Assembly (NCBI RefSeq): GCF_054482525.1
Contig: NZ_CM137006.1
Length of the DNA stretch: 64,000 bases
Reading direction: 5' to 3' (one strand)
Made by a program: the position numbers and the translations under genes. Below the pieces are notes generated by a model. The model saw only the letters and a list, made by a program, of their open reading frames with translations. It was not told the DNA's origin and did not search any database. Positions 54,490-60,343 of the stretch are shown here, one piece after another (position 1 is the stretch's first letter; each line of letters starts with the position of its first letter).

Positions 54490-55281
54490 ATGGCAACGCC
54501 AGTGAAGAAGTGGTTATTGCGCGTTGCCCCCTGGTTTTTACCGGTGGGCATCGTGGCGGTGTGGCAACTGGCCTCCTCAGTTGGCTGGCTGTCGACGCGT
54601 ATTTTGCCCTCTCCGGAAGGAGTGGTGACGGCGTTCTGGACGCTCTCCGCCAGCGGCGAATTGTGGCAGCATCTGGCGATCAGCTCCTGGCGGGCGTTGA
54701 TTGGCTTTTCAATTGGCGGATCGCTGGGGTTGATTTTGGGACTGATTAGCGGGCTATCTCGCTGGGGAGAACGGCTGCTGGATACCTCCATTCAGATGTT
54801 GCGTAACGTGCCGCATCTGGCGCTGATCCCGCTGGTGATTTTGTGGTTTGGCATTGATGAATCCGCAAAAATCTTTCTGGTGGCGCTCGGCACGCTATTC
54901 CCCATTTATATCAACACCTGGCACGGCATCCGTAATATCGATCGCGGTCTGGTGGAAATGGCGCGTAGCTATGGATTATCCGGCATCCCGCTGTTTATCC
55001 ATGTGATCCTGCCTGGTGCCCTGCCCTCCATTATGGTCGGCGTGCGTTTTGCGTTGGGCCTGATGTGGCTGACGCTGATTGTTGCCGAAACCATTTCTGC
55101 CAATTCCGGCATTGGTTATCTGGCGATGAATGCGCGGGAGTTTCTGCAAACGGACGTGGTGGTTGTCGCCATTATTCTTTACGCCCTGCTCGGCAAACTT
55201 GCTGACGTCAGCGCGCAGCTGTTAGAGCGCCTCTGGTTGCGCTGGAACCCGGCTTATCATTTGAAGGAGGCCACGGTATGA
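54490..55281 (+). CDS. ssuC: SsuC, alkanesulfonate ABC transporter permease
   Basis: 263-aa membrane ORF with the ABC permease EAA-like loop. Confidence 0.95.
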
Positions 55282-56045
55282 ATACTGCTCGTCTGAACCA
55301 GGGCACACCATTGTTGCTCAATGCAGTAAGCAAACATTACGCGGAAAATATCGTCCTGAACCAACTGGATTTACATATTCCTGCAGGTCAGTTTGTGGCG
55401 GTGGTGGGCCGTAGCGGTGGTGGCAAAAGTACCTTGCTGCGCCTGCTGGCAGGTCTGGAAACGCCAACCGCAGGCGATGTGTTAGCGGGCACCACACCGC
55501 TGGCTGAAATTCAGGAAGACACGCGAATGATGTTTCAGGATGCGCGTCTGCTACCGTGGAAATCGGTGATTGATAACGTTGGGTTAGGCCTTCAAGGTCA
55601 GTGGCGCGATGCCGCGCGTCGGGCGCTGGCTGCGGTAGGACTGGAGAATCGCGCGGGGGAATGGCCTGCCGCACTTTCTGGCGGGCAGAAACAGCGTGTG
55701 GCGCTGGCAAGAGCGTTGATTCATCGACCGGGTTTATTATTGCTTGATGAACCGCTCGGGGCGCTGGACGCCCTGACTCGGCTCGAGATGCAGGATTTGA
55801 TTGTGTCACTTTGGCAGGAGCACGGCTTTACCGTACTGTTGGTGACGCATGATGTGAGCGAAGCGGTAGCAATGGCTGACCGGGTGTTATTAATTGAAGA
55901 GGGAAAAATTGGTCTGGATTTGACAGTGGATATCCCCCGTCCGCGTCGATTAGGGTCGGTGCGATTAGCGGAGCTGGAATCGGAAGTGTTGCAAAGGGTG
56001 ATGCAGCGTGGGCACTCTGAACAACCGATTCGGCGTCATGGGTAA
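55278..56045 (+). CDS. ssuB: SsuB, alkanesulfonate ABC transporter ATP-binding protein
   Basis: 255-aa ORF with Walker [10 protein letters not shown], signature LSGGQKQR and Walker B LLLDEP. Confidence 0.95.
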
Positions 56046-56262
56046 TATGCCGGATGTGGCGCACAAAACCAGCATTTCCAACGGACTTGTGGGCCTGATA
56101 AGACGCGTCAAGCGTCGCATCAGGCAGTTGGACCCGGTTGCCGGATGCGCGTAAACGCCTTATCAGGAAGTTGGGCACGGCTGCCGGATGCGGCGTGAAC
56201 GCCTTATCCAGCCTACAAAACCAGCATTTTCAACGGACTTGTAGGCCTGATAAGACGCGTCA
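56046..56262. repeat. REP cluster (bacterial interspersed mosaic element) with several palindromic units between ssuB and pepN
   Basis: Repeated GCCGGATG... / GCCTGATAAGACGCGTCAAGCGTCGCATCAGGC-type palindromes at about 56049-56065, 56091-56124, 56130-56160, 56180-56215 and 56240-56262. The last unit is interrupted by the IS. Confidence 0.8.
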
Positions 56263-56313
56263 TGAACTGCACCCCAAATGTTGGACATAATCTGACATCT
56301 GAAGGTGCAGTTT

Positions 56314-56835
56314 ATGAAACATTCATTTGAAGTAAAACTTGCCGCTGTAAATCACTACCTGGCTGGTCATGCAGGCATCATTTCTACGGCAAAACTCTTT
56401 CAACTTTCTCACACCAGCCTCTCACACTGGATTAATCTTTTTCTTCTTCACGGTCCTCGGGCACTGGATTGCAGACACAAGCGTAGCTATTCTCCTGAAG
56501 ATAAACTTTGCGTGGTTCTTTATGCTCTCGGGCATTCTGAGTCTCTACCCCGGGTAGCTGCCCGGTTTAACATTCCCAGCCACAACACGGTTAAAAACTG
56601 GATAAAAGGCTACCGCAAATCTGGTAATGAGGCCTTTATCAGGCGCAGGAAGGAGAAAAGCATGACCCGTTCTGATGATACCCATGAAAACGAGGCAAAC
56701 ATGACGCCGGAAGAGATGAAGAATGAGCTGCGTTATCTTCGCGCAGAAAATGCATATCTGAAAGCCATGCAGGAGCATCTCCTGGAAAAAAAGCGCCAGG
56801 AGCTGGAGAAAAAACGAAAGTCATCCGGAGCCTGA
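56314..56835 (+). CDS. IS orfA (transposase N-terminal part, helix-turn-helix plus leucine zipper)
   Basis: MKHSFEVKLAAVNHYLAGHAGIISTAKLFQLSHTSLSHWINLF...; ATG at 56314 with GAAGG 8 nt upstream (track ORF starts at an upstream GTG, 56305). Ends just after an A-rich slippery run. Confidence 0.88.
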   Translation: MKHSFEVKLAAVNHYLAGHAGIISTAKLFQLSHTSLSHWINLFLLHGPRALDCRHKRSYSPEDKLCVVLYALGHSESLPRVAARFNIPSHNTVKNWIKGYRKSGNEAFIRRRKEKSMTRSDDTHENEANMTPEEMKNELRYLRAENAYLKAMQEHLLEKKRQELEKKRKSSGA

Positions 56836-56939
56836 GGTGCGGACACTGCCAGTCTGACCTGTTAAAGGCTGCAGGGCTGGCCAGAAGCACGCTGTACTAC
56901 CAGCTGTCACTGCAGAAGGCTAAGGACAAGTATGCTGAT

Positions 56940-57694
<755 letters not shown>

Positions 57695-57725
57695 GTCAAG
57701 CGTCGCATCCGGCATTTTGGCTCAA
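57695..57725. repeat. Right half of the interrupted REP palindromic unit
   Basis: GTCAAGCGTCGCATCCGGC immediately after the IS right end; together with 56241-56262 it reconstitutes GCCTGATAAGACGCGTCAAGCGTCGCATCCGGC. Confidence 0.7.
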
Positions 57726-57730
57726 AAGTA

Positions 57731-60343
57731 TCAAGCCAGTGCTTTAGTTATCTTCTCGTACAGATCGCCAGAGAGATTTTCCAGCCCTTTCAACTGCTCC
57801 AGCGCCGCGCGCATTTTCTCCTGACGTTTGGCATCGTAACGCTTCAGGCGAATCAGCGGCTCAATCAGGCGCGAAGCCACCTGCGGGTTACGGCTGTTGA
57901 GGTCGGTAAGCATTTCCACCAGGAACTGGTAACCGCTGCCATCTTCGGCATGGAACGCTGCCGGGTTGCTGCCCGCAAACGCGCCAATCAACGAACGAAT
58001 GCGGTTCGGGTTGCTCATGGTAAATGAGCGATGCTGCAACAGACCACGCACCGTCTCCAGCACATTTGCCGCCGGGCTGGTGGCTTGCAGGATAAACCAT
58101 TTATCCATCACCAGACCGTCCTGATGCCACTTGTCGTCGTACTCCTGCATCAGCGCGTCACGGCATGGCAGCTGTGCAGCAACCGCCGCAGAAAGCGCGG
58201 CCAGCGCATCGGTCATATTGTTTGCTTCATGGAACTGCTTGCTCACCAGCACGTCAGCCAGATGCGTTTCACCAAAAGCGAGGAAACGCAGGCAGGCATT
58301 TCGCAGAGTGCGTTTTGCAATATCTTCATGCTCAACACGGTACTCGCTCTGGTAATTCGCGTTGTAAATAGCCAGTAGCTCATCCGCCAGTTCAGTCGCC
58401 AGAGTACGAGTGAGTGCTTCGCGTACTTCAGCAATAGCAATCGGGTCGATGATATCGAACAGTTCTGCCATTTCATTGACGGAAGGCAGCGTCAGGATTT
58501 CTGCCGCCAGTGCCGGATCAATCTTCTCATCAAGCAGTACCGCGCGGAAAGCATCAGCCACATGCACCGGCAGAGACAGCGGCTGCCCTTGCTGATGACG
58601 GGCGACGTTGAGCTTGATGTAGGTTGCCAGCAGGCTTTGCGCCGCATCCCAGCGGGAGAAATCATTACGCGCATGGCGCATCAGGAAGGTCAGTTGCTGA
58701 TCGCTCCACTTATATTCCAGTTTCACTGGCGCAGAGAATTCGCACAGCAGCGCAGGCACCGGCTGAAAGTAGACATTATCAAAGACAAAGGTCTGTTCCG
58801 CCTGGGTGACGTTCAGCACCGAATTCACCGGGTGACCGCCTTTCTGCAACGGGATCACTTTGCCTTCGTTGTCATACAGTTCGATGGCAAACGGAATATG
58901 CAGCGGCTGTTTTTCTGCCTGATCCGGCGTAGCAGGCGTGCGCTGGCTGATGGTCAGGGTGTACTGCTCGGTTTCCGGATTATAGTCGTCTTTGACGGTC
59001 ACAACCGGCGTACCGGACTGGCTGTACCAACGGCGGAAATGAGAGAGATCGACATTCGACGCATCTTCCATCGCCTGAACAAAGTCGTCGCAGGTTGCCG
59101 CGCTGCCATCATGGCGCTCGAAATAGAGCTGCATCCCTTTCTGGAAGTTTTCTTCGCCCAGCAGGGTGTGGATCATGCGAATCACTTCCGCGCCCTTCTC
59201 GTAAACGGTCAGGGTGTAGAAGTTGTTCATCTCAATGACCATATCCGGGCGGATCGGGTGCGCCATCGGGCTGGCGTCTTCCGCAAACTGCAATCCGCGC
59301 ATGGTGCGCACGTTGTTGATACGGTTTACCGCGCGGGAACCAAGGTCAGAGCTGAATTCCTGATCGCGGAAGACGGTTAAACCTTCTTTCAGGCTGAGCT
59401 GGAACCAGTCGCGGCAGGTCACACGGTTACCGGTCCAGTTATGGAAATATTCATGGCCGATAACACGCTCAATATCGAGGTAATCTTTATCGGTGGCGGT
59501 GTCGGTACGGGCCAGCACATATTTGGAGTTAAAGATATTCAGACCTTTATTCTCCATTGCGCCCATATTGAAGAAATCCACCGCGACGATCATATAGATG
59601 TCGAGGTCATACTCCAGGCCGAAGCGTTCTTCATCCCATTTCATGGAGTTTTTCAGCGAGGTCATCGCCCACGGCGCACGATCAAGGTTGCCGCGATCGA
59701 CGTACAGCTCCAGCGCAACTTCGCGACCAGAACGCGTGGTGAAGGTGTCGCGCAGCACGTCGAAGTCGCCTGTCACCAGCGCAAACAGGTAGCACGGTTT
59801 CGGGAACGGGTCCTGCCACTGTACCCAGTGACGTCCGTTTTCCAGTTCGCCTTGCGCAACGCGGTTACCGTTGGAAAGCAGGAAGGGATATTTGGTTTTA
59901 TCGGCAATAATTTTGGTGGTAAAACGCGCCAGCACGTCCGGGCGGTCAAGATAATACGTAATATGGCGGAAACCTTCGGCTTCACACTGAGTGCAAAGCG
60001 CATCGCCTGACTGATAAAGCCCTTCCAGCGCGGTATTCGTCGCCGGGCTAATTTCATTAACGATCTTAAGCGTAAAACGCTCCGGCAAATTACTGATGAC
60101 CAGTGCGCCCTCTTCTTCTTTCCAGGCGGTCCACGGCTCATCATTAATATGAACAGAAACCAGTTTAAGATCTTCGCCATCAAGACGAAGCGGAGCATCT
60201 GATGCACCATGACGGACAGCCTGGCTGACCGCGGTAACGACCGTCTTTTGCGCGTCCAGGTCAAAGGTCAAGTCAATATCAGTAATCTGGTAATCCGGCG
60301 CACGATAATCGTGACGGTATTTGGCTTGTGGCTGTTGAGTCAT
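57731..60343 (-). CDS. pepN: PepN, aminopeptidase N (M1 family zinc metallopeptidase)
   Basis: 870-aa ORF MTQQPQAKYRHDYRAPDYQITDIDLTFDLDAQKT... with GAMEN and HEYFHNWTGN (HExxH) motifs. Confidence 0.97.
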   Translation of the reverse strand: MTQQPQAKYRHDYRAPDYQITDIDLTFDLDAQKTVVTAVSQAVRHGASDAPLRLDGEDLKLVSVHINDEPWTAWKEEEGALVISNLPERFTLKIVNEISPATNTALEGLYQSGDALCTQCEAEGFRHITYYLDRPDVLARFTTKIIADKTKYPFLLSNGNRVAQGELENGRHWVQWQDPFPKPCYLFALVTGDFDVLRDTFTTRSGREVALELYVDRGNLDRAPWAMTSLKNSMKWDEERFGLEYDLDIYMIVAVDFFNMGAMENKGLNIFNSKYVLARTDTATDKDYLDIERVIGHEYFHNWTGNRVTCRDWFQLSLKEGLTVFRDQEFSSDLGSRAVNRINNVRTMRGLQFAEDASPMAHPIRPDMVIEMNNFYTLTVYEKGAEVIRMIHTLLGEENFQKGMQLYFERHDGSAATCDDFVQAMEDASNVDLSHFRRWYSQSGTPVVTVKDDYNPETEQYTLTISQRTPATPDQAEKQPLHIPFAIELYDNEGKVIPLQKGGHPVNSVLNVTQAEQTFVFDNVYFQPVPALLCEFSAPVKLEYKWSDQQLTFLMRHARNDFSRWDAAQSLLATYIKLNVARHQQGQPLSLPVHVADAFRAVLLDEKIDPALAAEILTLPSVNEMAELFDIIDPIAIAEVREALTRTLATELADELLAIYNANYQSEYRVEHEDIAKRTLRNACLRFLAFGETHLADVLVSKQFHEANNMTDALAALSAAVAAQLPCRDALMQEYDDKWHQDGLVMDKWFILQATSPAANVLETVRGLLQHRSFTMSNPNRIRSLIGAFAGSNPAAFHAEDGSGYQFLVEMLTDLNSRNPQVASRLIEPLIRLKRYDAKRQEKMRAALEQLKGLENLSGDLYEKITKALA

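What the first reader, a model, noticed from the sequence alone, without database searches (positions are those of the whole stretch)
56046..56262. Multi-unit REP cluster at the convergent ssuB/pepN junction acting as an IS landing site
At least four or five palindromic units of two related types alternate in this 217-bp stretch. Such clusters act as terminators and mRNA stabilisers and bind gyrase and IHF. Here one unit has been hit by the IS, illustrating these clusters as hotspots for this IS family.
Basis: partly seen in the sequence, partly recalled or inferred. Interest (0 to 1): 0.25.

Follow-up and report, generated by a model that had tools for sequence, protein, structure and literature searches.

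The report
REP cluster split by IS1397
The stretch between the E. coli genes ssuB and pepN is an ordinary cluster of REP palindromes (Y and Z2 units), and one unit has been split by IS1397, an insertion sequence already known to jump specifically into REP hairpin loops.

Summary
The 217 bp after the ssuB stop codon (56046-56262) contain:
- a truncated Y unit;
- an intact Z2 unit;
- a degenerate Y-like unit;
- an intact Y unit;
- the left half of a second Z2 unit.

The IS (56263-57694) is IS1397. It is 100% identical to annotated copies and is flanked by a 4-bp duplication, GTCA. One sequenced strain carries the exact empty site.

IS1397 sat inside a REP loop at all seven loci examined. It occupies this same unit in 39 of 5426 complete E. 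coli genomes. Differences in duplication length and in IS sequence, on identical flanks, suggest at least two or three separate insertions there.

- K-12 has no REP at this junction. It has a 42-bp spacer with a plain terminator-like hairpin.
- The cluster is BIME-2-like (Y/Z2). It lacks the IHF-binding L linker, so the IHF claim does not apply here.
- REP targeting belongs to IS1397 and a few other elements, not to the IS3 family as a whole.

All of this is established biology. Interest is low.

The parts
55278..56045 (+). ssuB coding sequence (255 aa). Its stop codon TAA is at 56043-56045.
   Evidence: ORF list. RefSeq annotation of the identical sequence in strain PCN033 and others.
56048..56061 (+). 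PU0: a truncated Y-type palindromic unit. Only the head arm TGCCGGATGTGGCG remains; the loop and tail arm are deleted.
   Evidence: Head motif with 1 mismatch. It aligns with the head of PU3, followed directly by the tail-to-tail linker (D11/D2, 15). The truncation is present in all REP-bearing alleles, including Escherichia sp. E1V33.
56062..56088 (.). Tail-to-tail linker, copy 1 (CACAAAACCAGCATTTCCAACGGACTT).
   Evidence: Part of a 48-nt direct repeat, 96% identical to 56215-56262 (D2). It is specific to this locus: 2249 of 5426 genomes carry it, with a median of 2 places each. It has no IHF consensus.
56089..56126 (-). PU1: an intact Z2-type palindromic unit, head-first on the minus strand.
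   Evidence: 35/38 identical to a Z2 unit from another locus. Hairpin -21.8 kcal/mol, z = -6.3. Covered by the Rfam RF02564 match.
56127..56138 (.). Head-to-head linker (GTTGGACCCGGT). It resembles the 'l' linker of the REP325/naRNA4 unit.
   Evidence: It aligns to the linker positions of the Rfam naRNA4 model. The Y-l-Z2 unit is described in PMC4550694.
56139..56167 (+). PU2: an extra, degenerate Y-like unit. The head has a 1-nt deletion, the tail is Z-like, and there is no CTAC. Together with the linker at 56168-56181 it forms a 44-bp insertion relative to the commoner allele.
   Evidence: 28/35 to the Y reference. Its fold is no better than shuffles, -5.8 kcal/mol, z = 0.1. It is absent from the medium alleles and present in only 35 of 5426 genomes.
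56182..56216 (+). PU3: an intact Y-type palindromic unit with one stem mismatch (CCAGCC instead of CCGGCC).
   Evidence: 33/35 to Y units at the livF and gudD loci. Hairpin -15.1 kcal/mol on the + strand and -18.7 on the minus strand, z about -3.2 to -3.5.
56217..56240 (.). Tail-to-tail linker, copy 2.
   Evidence: Direct repeat D2.
56241..56262 (-). PU4, left half: the tail arm GTAGGCCTGATAAGACGCG plus the loop bases, of the Z2 unit split by the IS. The left copy of the target duplication GTCA is at 56259-56262.
   Evidence: The tail motif matches with 0 mismatches. The restored unit is 35/38 to the Z2 reference and folds at -17.1 kcal/mol, z = -3.6. Strain 19KM1831 carries the exact empty site.
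56263..57694 (+). IS1397 (IS3 family), 1432 bp. Its features are: 25-nt imperfect inverted repeats at 56263-56287 and 57670-57694; orfA at 56314-56835; the orfB frame, open from 56727, with its stop at 57662; and A-runs at 56786 and 56809 in the overlap, candidates for the -1 frameshift.
   Evidence: Inverted repeat I1. 100% identity to copies annotated 'IS3-like element IS1397 family transposase, programmed frameshift'. Pfam domains: HTH_28/HTH_Tnp_1 in OrfA, and HTH_21 plus rve (integrase core) in OrfB. Frame analysis.
56260..56317 (+). A hairpin that pairs the flank plus the left IS end with the orfA ribosome-binding and ATG region. It would form in transcripts reading in from ssuB.
   Evidence: Inverted repeat I8. 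Fold -29.7 kcal/mol, z = -6.5. Its function is inferred by analogy with other IS elements.
57695..57714 (-). The right copy of the target duplication (GTCA, 57695-57698), followed by PU4, right half (head arm AGCGTCGCATCCGGCA, 57699-57714).
   Evidence: Head motif with 0 mismatches on the minus strand at 57701-57713. Flank analysis.
57731..60343 (-). pepN coding sequence (870 aa), convergent with ssuB. Its stop codon lies 16 nt from the head of PU4.
   Evidence: ORF list. RefSeq annotation of identical sequence.
56092..56169 (-). A match to the Rfam model RF02564 (naRNA4), which is a Y-linker-Z2 unit. Here it spans PU2, the linker and PU1.
   Evidence: 62.6 bits against a gathering score of 59.5, E = 1e-8, full model length. 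The equivalent PU3-linker-PU1 stretch of the medium allele scores 76.9 bits.

Best explanation
What it is. The ssuB-pepN spacer of this strain, which is E. coli PCN033-like, is a BIME-2-like REP cluster. It consists of two tandem Y / tail-to-tail linker / Z2 / head-to-head linker modules. The first Y is truncated, and there is one extra degenerate unit.

The insertion. IS1397 inserted into the loop of the last Z2 unit, the one nearest pepN, and duplicated the four loop bases GTCA.

How the insertion works (inferred). The IS1397 OrfAB transposase is a DDE enzyme made by a -1 frameshift. It recognises the palindromic unit and makes a 3-4-bp staggered cut in its loop. IS3-family elements move by copy-out/paste-in, so the donor copy stays in place.

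What the cluster does (inferred from the literature, not shown here). Its hairpins sit in the 3' untranslated regions of two convergent mRNAs. There they can slow 3'-to-5' exonucleases and attenuate read-through.

Consequence of the insertion (inferred). ssuB keeps three units downstream. pepN loses its proximal hairpin and now reads into the right end of the IS. Transcripts entering the IS from ssuB can fold a hairpin that hides the orfA start codon.
For: Shown directly:
- The IS is 1432 bp, has 25-nt inverted repeats and is 100% identical to annotated IS1397. OrfA carries HTH domains and OrfB carries HTH_21 and rve domains.
- GTCA is duplicated on both sides of the IS.
- Removing the IS and one GTCA gives a sequence identical over 819/819 nt to strain 19KM1831.
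- The units are typed Y or Z2 against references from other loci. They fold as significant hairpins, except PU2. The Rfam Y-l-Z2 model matches above its gathering score.
- At six further loci IS1397 lies inside a palindromic unit: cyuA, tRNA-Pro, livF, gudD, REP325 (yjdM/N) and yjjV. Five of them show a clean 3-4-bp duplication.
- 39 of 5426 genomes carry the IS in this same unit and orientation.
- On identical flanks, 3 genomes are full-length matches identical to the window, which has the GTCA duplication. The other 31 long-allele genomes match over 2600 nt; the four of these that were sequenced have TCA, with IS copies differing at 4-16 sites. Five records carry the IS on a diverged, shorter allele.

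From the literature:
- IS1397 and ISKpn1 insert specifically into REPs (PMC1525189; reference lists).
- REPs act as 3'UTR terminators and stabilisers, and about 30% of convergent gene pairs have one (bioRxiv 10.64898/2026.03.23.713779).
Against: - No expression, RNA-end or protein-binding data exist for this locus, so every functional role of the cluster is an inference.
- PU2 does not fold better than chance, and PU3 and PU4 each carry a stem mismatch. Part of the cluster may be decaying rather than functional.
- The tail-to-tail linker (24 nt, specific to this locus) could not be matched to the published S motif, because the consensus was not available to me. 'BIME-2-like or atypical BIME' is as precise as I can be.
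- The different IS variants at the site could come from gene conversion between IS copies rather than from separate insertions. The mosaic block at IS positions 1035-1165 points that way.
Confidence: 0.9

Rival explanations
1. All 39 occupied genomes descend from a single ancestral IS1397 insertion. On this view the unit is one of hundreds of possible targets, hit once by chance, and is not a hotspot.
For: - All 39 have the IS in the same unit and the same orientation.
- Only 39 of about 2250 genomes with the REP-bearing allele are occupied.
- The mosaic pattern of IS differences, with the block at 1035-1165 present in L018, L020 and L021 but absent in L019, shows that gene conversion between IS copies happens. 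That could explain the IS divergence.
Against: - On flanks that are identical over about 1160 nt, the duplication is 4 bp (GTCA) in the window class and 3 bp (TCA) in strains 1190, WP4-S18, S1-SRL-01-C and UID2309220033. Gene conversion inside the IS cannot change that.
- An empty site persists in the same flank background.
- The IS also sits in the diverged medium allele, whose unit has a 1-nt shorter loop.
- The livF unit shows the same pattern, GTA versus GTAA with different IS variants.
Confidence: 0.25
2. The cluster is a gene for a nucleoid-associated RNA of the naRNA4 type, which binds HU and helps condense the chromosome.
For: - Rfam RF02564 (naRNA4) matches 56092-56169 on the minus strand at 62.6 bits, above the 59.5 gathering score.
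- The model describes a Y-l-Z2 unit of REP325 (PMC4550694).
Against: - The model is in effect a generic BIME-2 unit, so any Y/Z2 doublet with a similar linker will match.
- The match is only 3 bits over threshold, and its Y half is the degenerate PU2.
- There is no evidence of a separate transcript here.
Confidence: 0.04
3. The cluster is a BIME-1 (RIB/RIP) element that binds IHF.
For: - The tail-to-tail linker begins CTACAAAACC, like the L linkers seen beside other IS1397 copies.
- One IHF-like site with a single mismatch, TATCAGGAAGTTG, overlaps the tail of PU2.
Against: - The partner units are Z2 (38 nt), not Z1.
- The tail-to-tail linkers have no WATCAANNNNTTR match within two mismatches. 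Genuine L linkers at livF, gudD and cyuA each have a one-mismatch site at the same linker position.
- The linker is specific to this locus rather than a dispersed conserved motif.
- BIME-1 occurs as single copies, not tandem modules (PMC3333891).
Confidence: 0.04
4. The repeats are not REP-family elements. They are a local tandem duplication of a terminator hairpin, and the IS landed there by chance.
For: - The 48-nt direct repeat D2 and the locus-specific linker show that part of the structure did arise by local duplication.
Against: - The palindromic units themselves are dispersed in every E. coli genome, at a median of 29 places per genome for a query containing them.
- They match Y and Z2 units from unrelated loci at 92-94% identity.
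- They pass a curated covariance model.
- IS1397 lies in such units at 7 of 7 loci, although these units make up well under 1% of the genome.
Confidence: 0.01

Closest known systems
BIME-2 / atypical BIME (bacterial interspersed mosaic elements of E. coli; Gilson, Bachellier and Hofnung; summarised in PMC3333891)
   Same: - Y and Z2 palindromic units lie in opposite orientation, joined head-to-head by a 12-nt linker and tail-to-tail by a second linker, in tandem modules.
- The number of units varies between strains.
- The cluster is extragenic, at the 3' ends of convergent genes.
   Different: - The first Y unit is truncated.
- An extra degenerate unit (PU2) breaks the alternation.
- The 24-nt tail-to-tail linker is specific to this locus and could not be equated with the published S motif.
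- PU3 and PU4 each carry a stem mismatch.
IS1397 (IS3 family), the palindromic-unit-specific insertion sequence of E. coli (Bachellier 1997; Clement 1999; Wilde 2001, 2003; cited in PMC1525189 and PMC3333891)
   Same: - 100% nucleotide identity to annotated IS1397 copies.
- 1432 bp, with 25-nt inverted repeats ending TG...CA.
- orfA and orfB joined by a -1 frameshift.
- Insertion in the loop of a palindromic unit with a 3-4-bp duplication.
   Different: Nothing material. This is one more genomic copy at a site shared by 39 sequenced genomes.
REP325 / naRNA4 (Rfam RF02564; yjdM-yjdN spacer of K-12)
   Same: - One Y-linker-Z2 unit of the window passes the family's gathering score.
- REP325 is itself an IS1397 landing site in strain S1-SRB-02-B.
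   Different: - REP325 has six near-identical 77-bp units. This cluster has about two modules of lower quality.
- REP325 lies within an operon, not between convergent genes.
- No separate RNA is known from this spacer.
The K-12 allele of the same junction (42-bp spacer with a 13-bp GC hairpin and a T-rich tail)
   Same: - Same position between the ssuB and pepN stop codons.
- It also provides a strong hairpin (-25.1 kcal/mol, z = -6.3) at the 3' ends of both genes.
   Different: - It has no REP and looks like a classical intrinsic terminator.
- The last 11 codons of ssuB also differ, so the two alleles are old and the boundary lies inside ssuB.

Membership tests
REP / palindromic unit (PU) family of E. 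coli | An imperfect GC-rich palindrome of about 35-38 nt with an asymmetric head (GCCKGATGCGRCG) and tail (CGYCTTATCMGGCCTAC). | tested here: met
   Head and tail motifs are enriched and clustered in the spacer. PU1, PU3 and PU4 are 92-94% identical to Y and Z2 units from other loci. Their hairpins have z-scores of -3.2 to -6.3. PU0 (a half unit) and PU2 (degenerate) meet the feature only partly.
REP / palindromic unit (PU) family of E. coli | Extragenic and dispersed in many copies around the genome. | tested here: met
   The cluster lies between two stop codons. A query containing the spacer finds a median of 29 places per genome in 5425 of 5426 genomes, including K-12 derivatives that lack this cluster.
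BIME-2 | Made of Y and Z2 units in alternating orientation. | tested here: met
   Typing. The order and orientation are Y(half)+, Z2-, Y'+, Y+, Z2-. The alternation is perfect in the commoner medium allele and is broken only by the extra PU2 in this lineage.
BIME-2 | Characteristic linkers: S between tails, and s, l or r between heads. | tested here: inconclusive
   The head-to-head linker aligns to the 'l' linker of the Rfam naRNA4 model. The tail-to-tail linker is specific to this locus. The S consensus was not available, because the supplement of PMC3333891 is not held. [quoted passage not shown]
BIME-1 (RIB/RIP, IHF-binding) | A single Y-L-Z1 module whose L linker carries an IHF site. | tested here: not met
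   The units are Z2, not Z1 (the Z1 consensus is from memory). There is no IHF consensus in the tail-to-tail linker within two mismatches, whereas real L linkers have one. The modules are tandem.
IS1397 (IS3 family) | Sequence identity to IS1397, terminal inverted repeats, and orfA/orfB with a -1 frameshift and a DDE (rve) domain. | tested here: met
   100% identity over 1432 nt to annotated copies. 25-nt inverted repeats. Pfam rve, rve_2, HTH_21 and HTH_28 domains. Overlapping frames with A-runs.
IS1397 (IS3 family) | Insertion in the loop of a palindromic unit with a short (3-4 bp) target duplication. | tested here: met
   The window has GTCA. Other loci have GTAA, GCCA, GTA/GTAA, GTTA and GCAA. 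The empty site was recovered. The yjjV copy lies in a Y unit but showed no clean duplication.
naRNA4 (Rfam RF02564) | Covariance-model score at or above the gathering threshold. | tested here: met
   62.6 bits against 59.5. The margin is small, and the model is in effect a generic Y-l-Z2 unit.
naRNA4 (Rfam RF02564) | Made as a discrete RNA that binds HU. | not testable with these tools
   No expression data are available. The nucleoid role is itself disputed.
Intrinsic (Rho-independent) terminator | A GC-rich stem-loop followed directly by a run of T. | tested here: not met
   No terminator-like site lies in the spacer at 56046-56262 or 57695-57730. The K-12 allele does have one.

The most novel reading that the evidence does not exclude
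This particular Z2 unit may be a recurrent, orientation-locked hotspot for IS1397.

- At least two or three independent insertions appear to have occurred in the same loop: a 3-bp versus a 4-bp duplication on identical flanks, plus a third allele background.
- Across seven loci the IS always reads Y units head-first and Z2 units tail-first. Its orientation therefore follows one strand of the BIME, the strand on which the loop reads CG-YNA, and not the polarity of the unit itself.

This would mean that the transposase reads the loop sequence of one strand, perhaps in an extruded hairpin. It may already be described in the IS1397 papers, which I could not read.
Probability: 0.3. Interest if true: 0.3.

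Novelty: already known. Interest (0 to 1): 0.12.

Why it matters
It matters little beyond annotation. The locus is a clean textbook example of three known things:
- REP clusters vary between strains. This one junction has three alleles: no REP, about 3.5 units, and about 4.5 units.
- REP clusters sit between convergent genes.
- IS1397 uses REP loops as safe, gene-free landing pads.

Practical uses are limited:
- The natural trio of alleles could test what a REP cluster does for two convergent mRNAs. The trio is the K-12 hairpin, the empty REP cluster in strain 19KM1831, and the IS-occupied cluster in 19KM1776 and PCN033.
- The variation in duplication length and IS sequence is a handy marker for telling lineages apart.

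Tried and rejected
- The classical Stern REP consensus with a fixed 5-nt loop and up to 3 mismatches found nothing in the window. As I recalled it, that consensus has an extra N in the head that the Y and Z2 heads here lack, and the loop lengths differ. Separate head and tail motifs worked.
- I tried to read the primary IS1397 papers (PMC94167, PMC169884, PMC95333). None is held. The statements that IS1397 makes 3-4-bp duplications and has 'transpositional hot spots' therefore rest on my own data and on my memory of those papers.
- The supplement of PMC3333891, which lists BIME linkers, is not held. The S motif could not be compared.
- I first read the mismatched last unit (tail arm with T, head arm with G) as a sign that the two IS flanks came from different units, for example through IS-IS recombination. 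I rejected this. The empty-site strain has exactly the same hybrid unit, and other alleles show it is a single A/C polymorphism.
- I scanned one genome per species for the locus-specific linker, to decide which allele is ancestral. It returned only Escherichia sp. E1V33, which has the REP-bearing allele. This does not settle the question.
- The promoter scan found no outward or inward sigma-70-like promoter in 55900-57900.
- The Rfam naRNA4 hit was considered as a possible gene and rejected as a generic BIME-2 match.

Full report
**1. What is at the coordinates**

ssuB (55278-56045, + strand) and pepN (57731-60343, minus strand) converge. The finding covers exactly the 217 bp between the ssuB stop codon and the left end of an insertion sequence.

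Reading the sequence and the repeat analysis gives this order on the + strand:
- PU0, 56048-56061: only the head arm of a Y unit.
- A 27-nt tail-to-tail linker.
- PU1, 56089-56126: Z2, tail-first.
- A 12-nt head-to-head linker.
- PU2, 56139-56167: a degenerate Y-like unit.
- A 14-nt linker.
- PU3, 56182-56216: Y, head-first.
- A second copy of the tail-to-tail linker.
- PU4, 56241-56262: the tail arm and loop of a Z2 unit.

PU4 continues after the IS at 57699-57714, 16 nt from the pepN stop codon.

**2. Is it more than chance, and are these REPs?**

- The REP tail motif occurs 5 times in the window against 0.34 expected, and 3 of those are here.
- The head motif occurs 20 times against 7.6 expected. 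Four of the seven hits with at most one mismatch belong to this cluster.
- PU1, PU3 and the restored PU4 fold at -21.8, -15.1 and -17.1 kcal/mol, with z-scores of -6.3, -3.2 and -3.6. PU2 does not beat shuffled sequence, at z = 0.1.
- I used as references palindromic units found next to IS1397 copies at unrelated loci. PU3 is 33/35 identical to Y units. PU1 and PU4 are each 35/38 identical to a Z2 unit.
- A query containing the spacer hits a median of 29 places per genome in essentially every E. coli. That includes K-12 derivatives, which lack the cluster here.
- The curated Rfam model RF02564 describes the 77-nt Y-l-Z2 unit of REP325 (PMC4550694). It matches 56092-56169 on the minus strand above its gathering score, and it matches the equivalent unit of the commoner allele at 76.9 bits.

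The repeats are REP-family units of types Y and Z2.

**3. Which kind of cluster**

According to PMC3333891:
- BIME-1 is a single Y-L-Z1 module whose L linker often carries an IHF site.
- BIME-2 is a set of tandem Y/Z2 modules with short linkers.
- Atypical BIMEs mix these features.

Here the units are Y and Z2, the modules are tandem, and the head-to-head linker aligns with the REP325 'l' linker.

The tail-to-tail linker is specific to this locus. It occurs in 2249 of 5426 genomes, twice per genome. It has no IHF consensus within two mismatches, whereas genuine L linkers at livF, gudD and cyuA each have a one-mismatch site.

I therefore call the cluster BIME-2-like or atypical, and not an IHF-binding BIME-1.

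**4. The IS**

- The element at 56263-57694 is 1432 bp with 25-nt inverted repeats.
- It is 100% identical to copies annotated as IS1397 transposase with a programmed frameshift.
- OrfA has helix-turn-helix domains. OrfB has HTH_21 and the rve integrase core.
- The two frames overlap across A-runs.
- GTCA is duplicated on both sides.
- Deleting the IS and one GTCA gives a sequence identical over 819/819 nt to strain 19KM1831. This was a simple insertion into an intact unit.

**5. Is the REP the target?**

At six other loci IS1397 also sits inside a palindromic unit: yhaL/cyuA, downstream of a tRNA-Pro, livF, barA/gudD, yjdM/yjdN (which is REP325 itself) and yjjW/yjjV. Five of them show a clean 3-4-bp duplication.

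This agrees with the literature cited in PMC1525189. That paper also stresses that REP targeting is a property of individual elements in five IS families. It is not a defining trait of the IS3 family.

**6. Population picture**

The junction has three alleles:
- K-12 and about 59% of complete genomes have a 41-42-bp spacer with no REP. It contains a 13-bp GC hairpin with a T-rich tail, which looks like a terminator.
- About 41% have a REP-bearing spacer of 193-206 bp.
- Thirty-five genomes have the 249-bp form, which includes the extra PU2.

The last 11 codons of ssuB also differ between the K-12 and REP alleles. The REP allele is present in Escherichia sp. E1V33. The polymorphism is therefore old.

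IS1397 occupies PU4 in 39 genomes, always in the same orientation.
- Within the long allele the flanks are identical over about 1160 nt.
- Three genomes match the window exactly over the full 2601 nt, and the window has GTCA and an IS identical to copies at other loci.
- The four long-allele genomes I sequenced from the other 31, which all match over 2600 nt, have TCA and an IS that differs at 4-16 sites.
- Five records carry the IS on the diverged medium allele.

The simplest reading is two or three independent insertions into the same loop, with some gene conversion between IS copies. A single ancient insertion followed by conversion and a junction indel is not excluded.

**7. How it probably works**

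*Shown here:* the anatomy, the family membership, the hairpin potential, the target-site duplication, the empty site, and the recurrence of IS1397 in palindromic units.

*Inferred:*
- The hairpins lie in the 3' UTRs of both convergent mRNAs. There they can block exonucleases and attenuate read-through.
- Y/Z2 pairs are the class reported to bind gyrase (reference list).
- After the insertion, ssuB keeps PU1 to PU3, while pepN loses its proximal hairpin and reads into the IS. The IS offers other stems there but no T-tract.
- Transcripts entering from ssuB can fold a -29.7 kcal/mol hairpin that pairs the IS end with the orfA start region. This is a known way for insertion sequences to avoid activation from outside.

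**8. Verdict**

- K-12 has no units at this junction.
- IHF binding does not apply to this cluster.
- The specificity belongs to IS1397, not to the IS3 family.
- Half of the split unit lies outside the stated coordinates.

Everything fits established knowledge of BIMEs and IS1397, so novelty is nil and interest is low.

Noticed in passing
L001 (K-12 NC_000913.3 993235-993276) versus window 56046-56262 plus 57695-57730: K-12 has no REP between ssuB and pepN. Its 42-bp spacer holds a 13-bp GC hairpin with a T-rich tail, which looks like a terminator. The last 11 codons of ssuB also differ (GESETRLRKQG against [11 protein letters not shown]), so the allele boundary lies inside the gene.
   Followed up: yes
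window 56259-56262 / 57695-57698; loci L018-L021 and L015-L017: The same palindromic unit carries IS1397 with a 4-bp duplication (GTCA) in the window, which 3 genomes match exactly. All four other long-allele genomes sequenced (of 31) have a 3-bp duplication (TCA), on identical flanks. Their IS copies differ from the window's at 4-16 sites in a mosaic pattern: shared changes at IS positions 93, 96 and 102, and a block at 1035-1165 that is present or absent. This suggests repeated insertion together with gene conversion between IS copies.
   Followed up: partly
L009, L010, L013 (unit downstream of livF): A second example of the same unit being occupied with different duplication lengths (GTA against GTAA). 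The IS variants there encode different transposase accessions.
   Followed up: partly
window 56241-57714; loci L007-L013, L022, L023: In seven loci IS1397, read from orfA to orfB, crosses Y units head-first (livF, gudD, cyuA, yjjV) and Z2 units tail-first (ssuB/pepN, tRNA-Pro, REP325). Its orientation therefore follows one strand of the BIME rather than the polarity of the unit. The duplications read (G)YNA: GTCA, GTAA, GCCA, GTTA, GCAA.
   Followed up: partly
L022 (strain S1-SRB-02-B, yjdM-yjdN spacer): IS1397 is inserted in a Z2 unit of REP325, the model REP cluster that encodes the naRNAs.
   Followed up: partly
window 56260-56317: A 14-bp stem (-29.7 kcal/mol for the whole hairpin, z = -6.5) pairs the flank plus the left IS end with the orfA ribosome-binding site and ATG. 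It would silence translation of transcripts reading in from ssuB.
   Followed up: partly
window 56139-56181: The 44-bp extra unit (PU2 plus a linker) is found in only 35 of 5426 genomes. It is 80% similar to the neighbouring half-unit/linker/half-unit stretch, which suggests an old local duplication rather than a fresh one.
   Followed up: partly
reconstructed empty spacer (window 56043-56262 plus 57699-57733): Without the IS, the whole 249-bp spacer can fold into one long composite hairpin (-114 kcal/mol, z = -6.1). In that fold the orphan head arm PU0 pairs with the head arm of PU4.
   Followed up: no
window 8728-8764: An isolated, somewhat degenerate Z2-like REP (TGCCTGATGCGACGCTAATGCGCCTCATCAGGCTTAC). 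It is the only other REP detected in the window.
   Followed up: no
window 6628-7050 (-), 17594-17678 (+), 44546-44619 (-): Rfam matches above gathering score: a cspA-type thermoregulator 5'UTR, a tRNA, and the PyrD leader.
   Followed up: no
L023 (yjjW/yjjV spacer, strain 377323_2f): This IS1397 copy lies in a Y unit but shows no clean target duplication. The left flank ends TAAAC and the right flank starts GAAC. This may be a junction mutation or a slightly different IS end.
   Followed up: no
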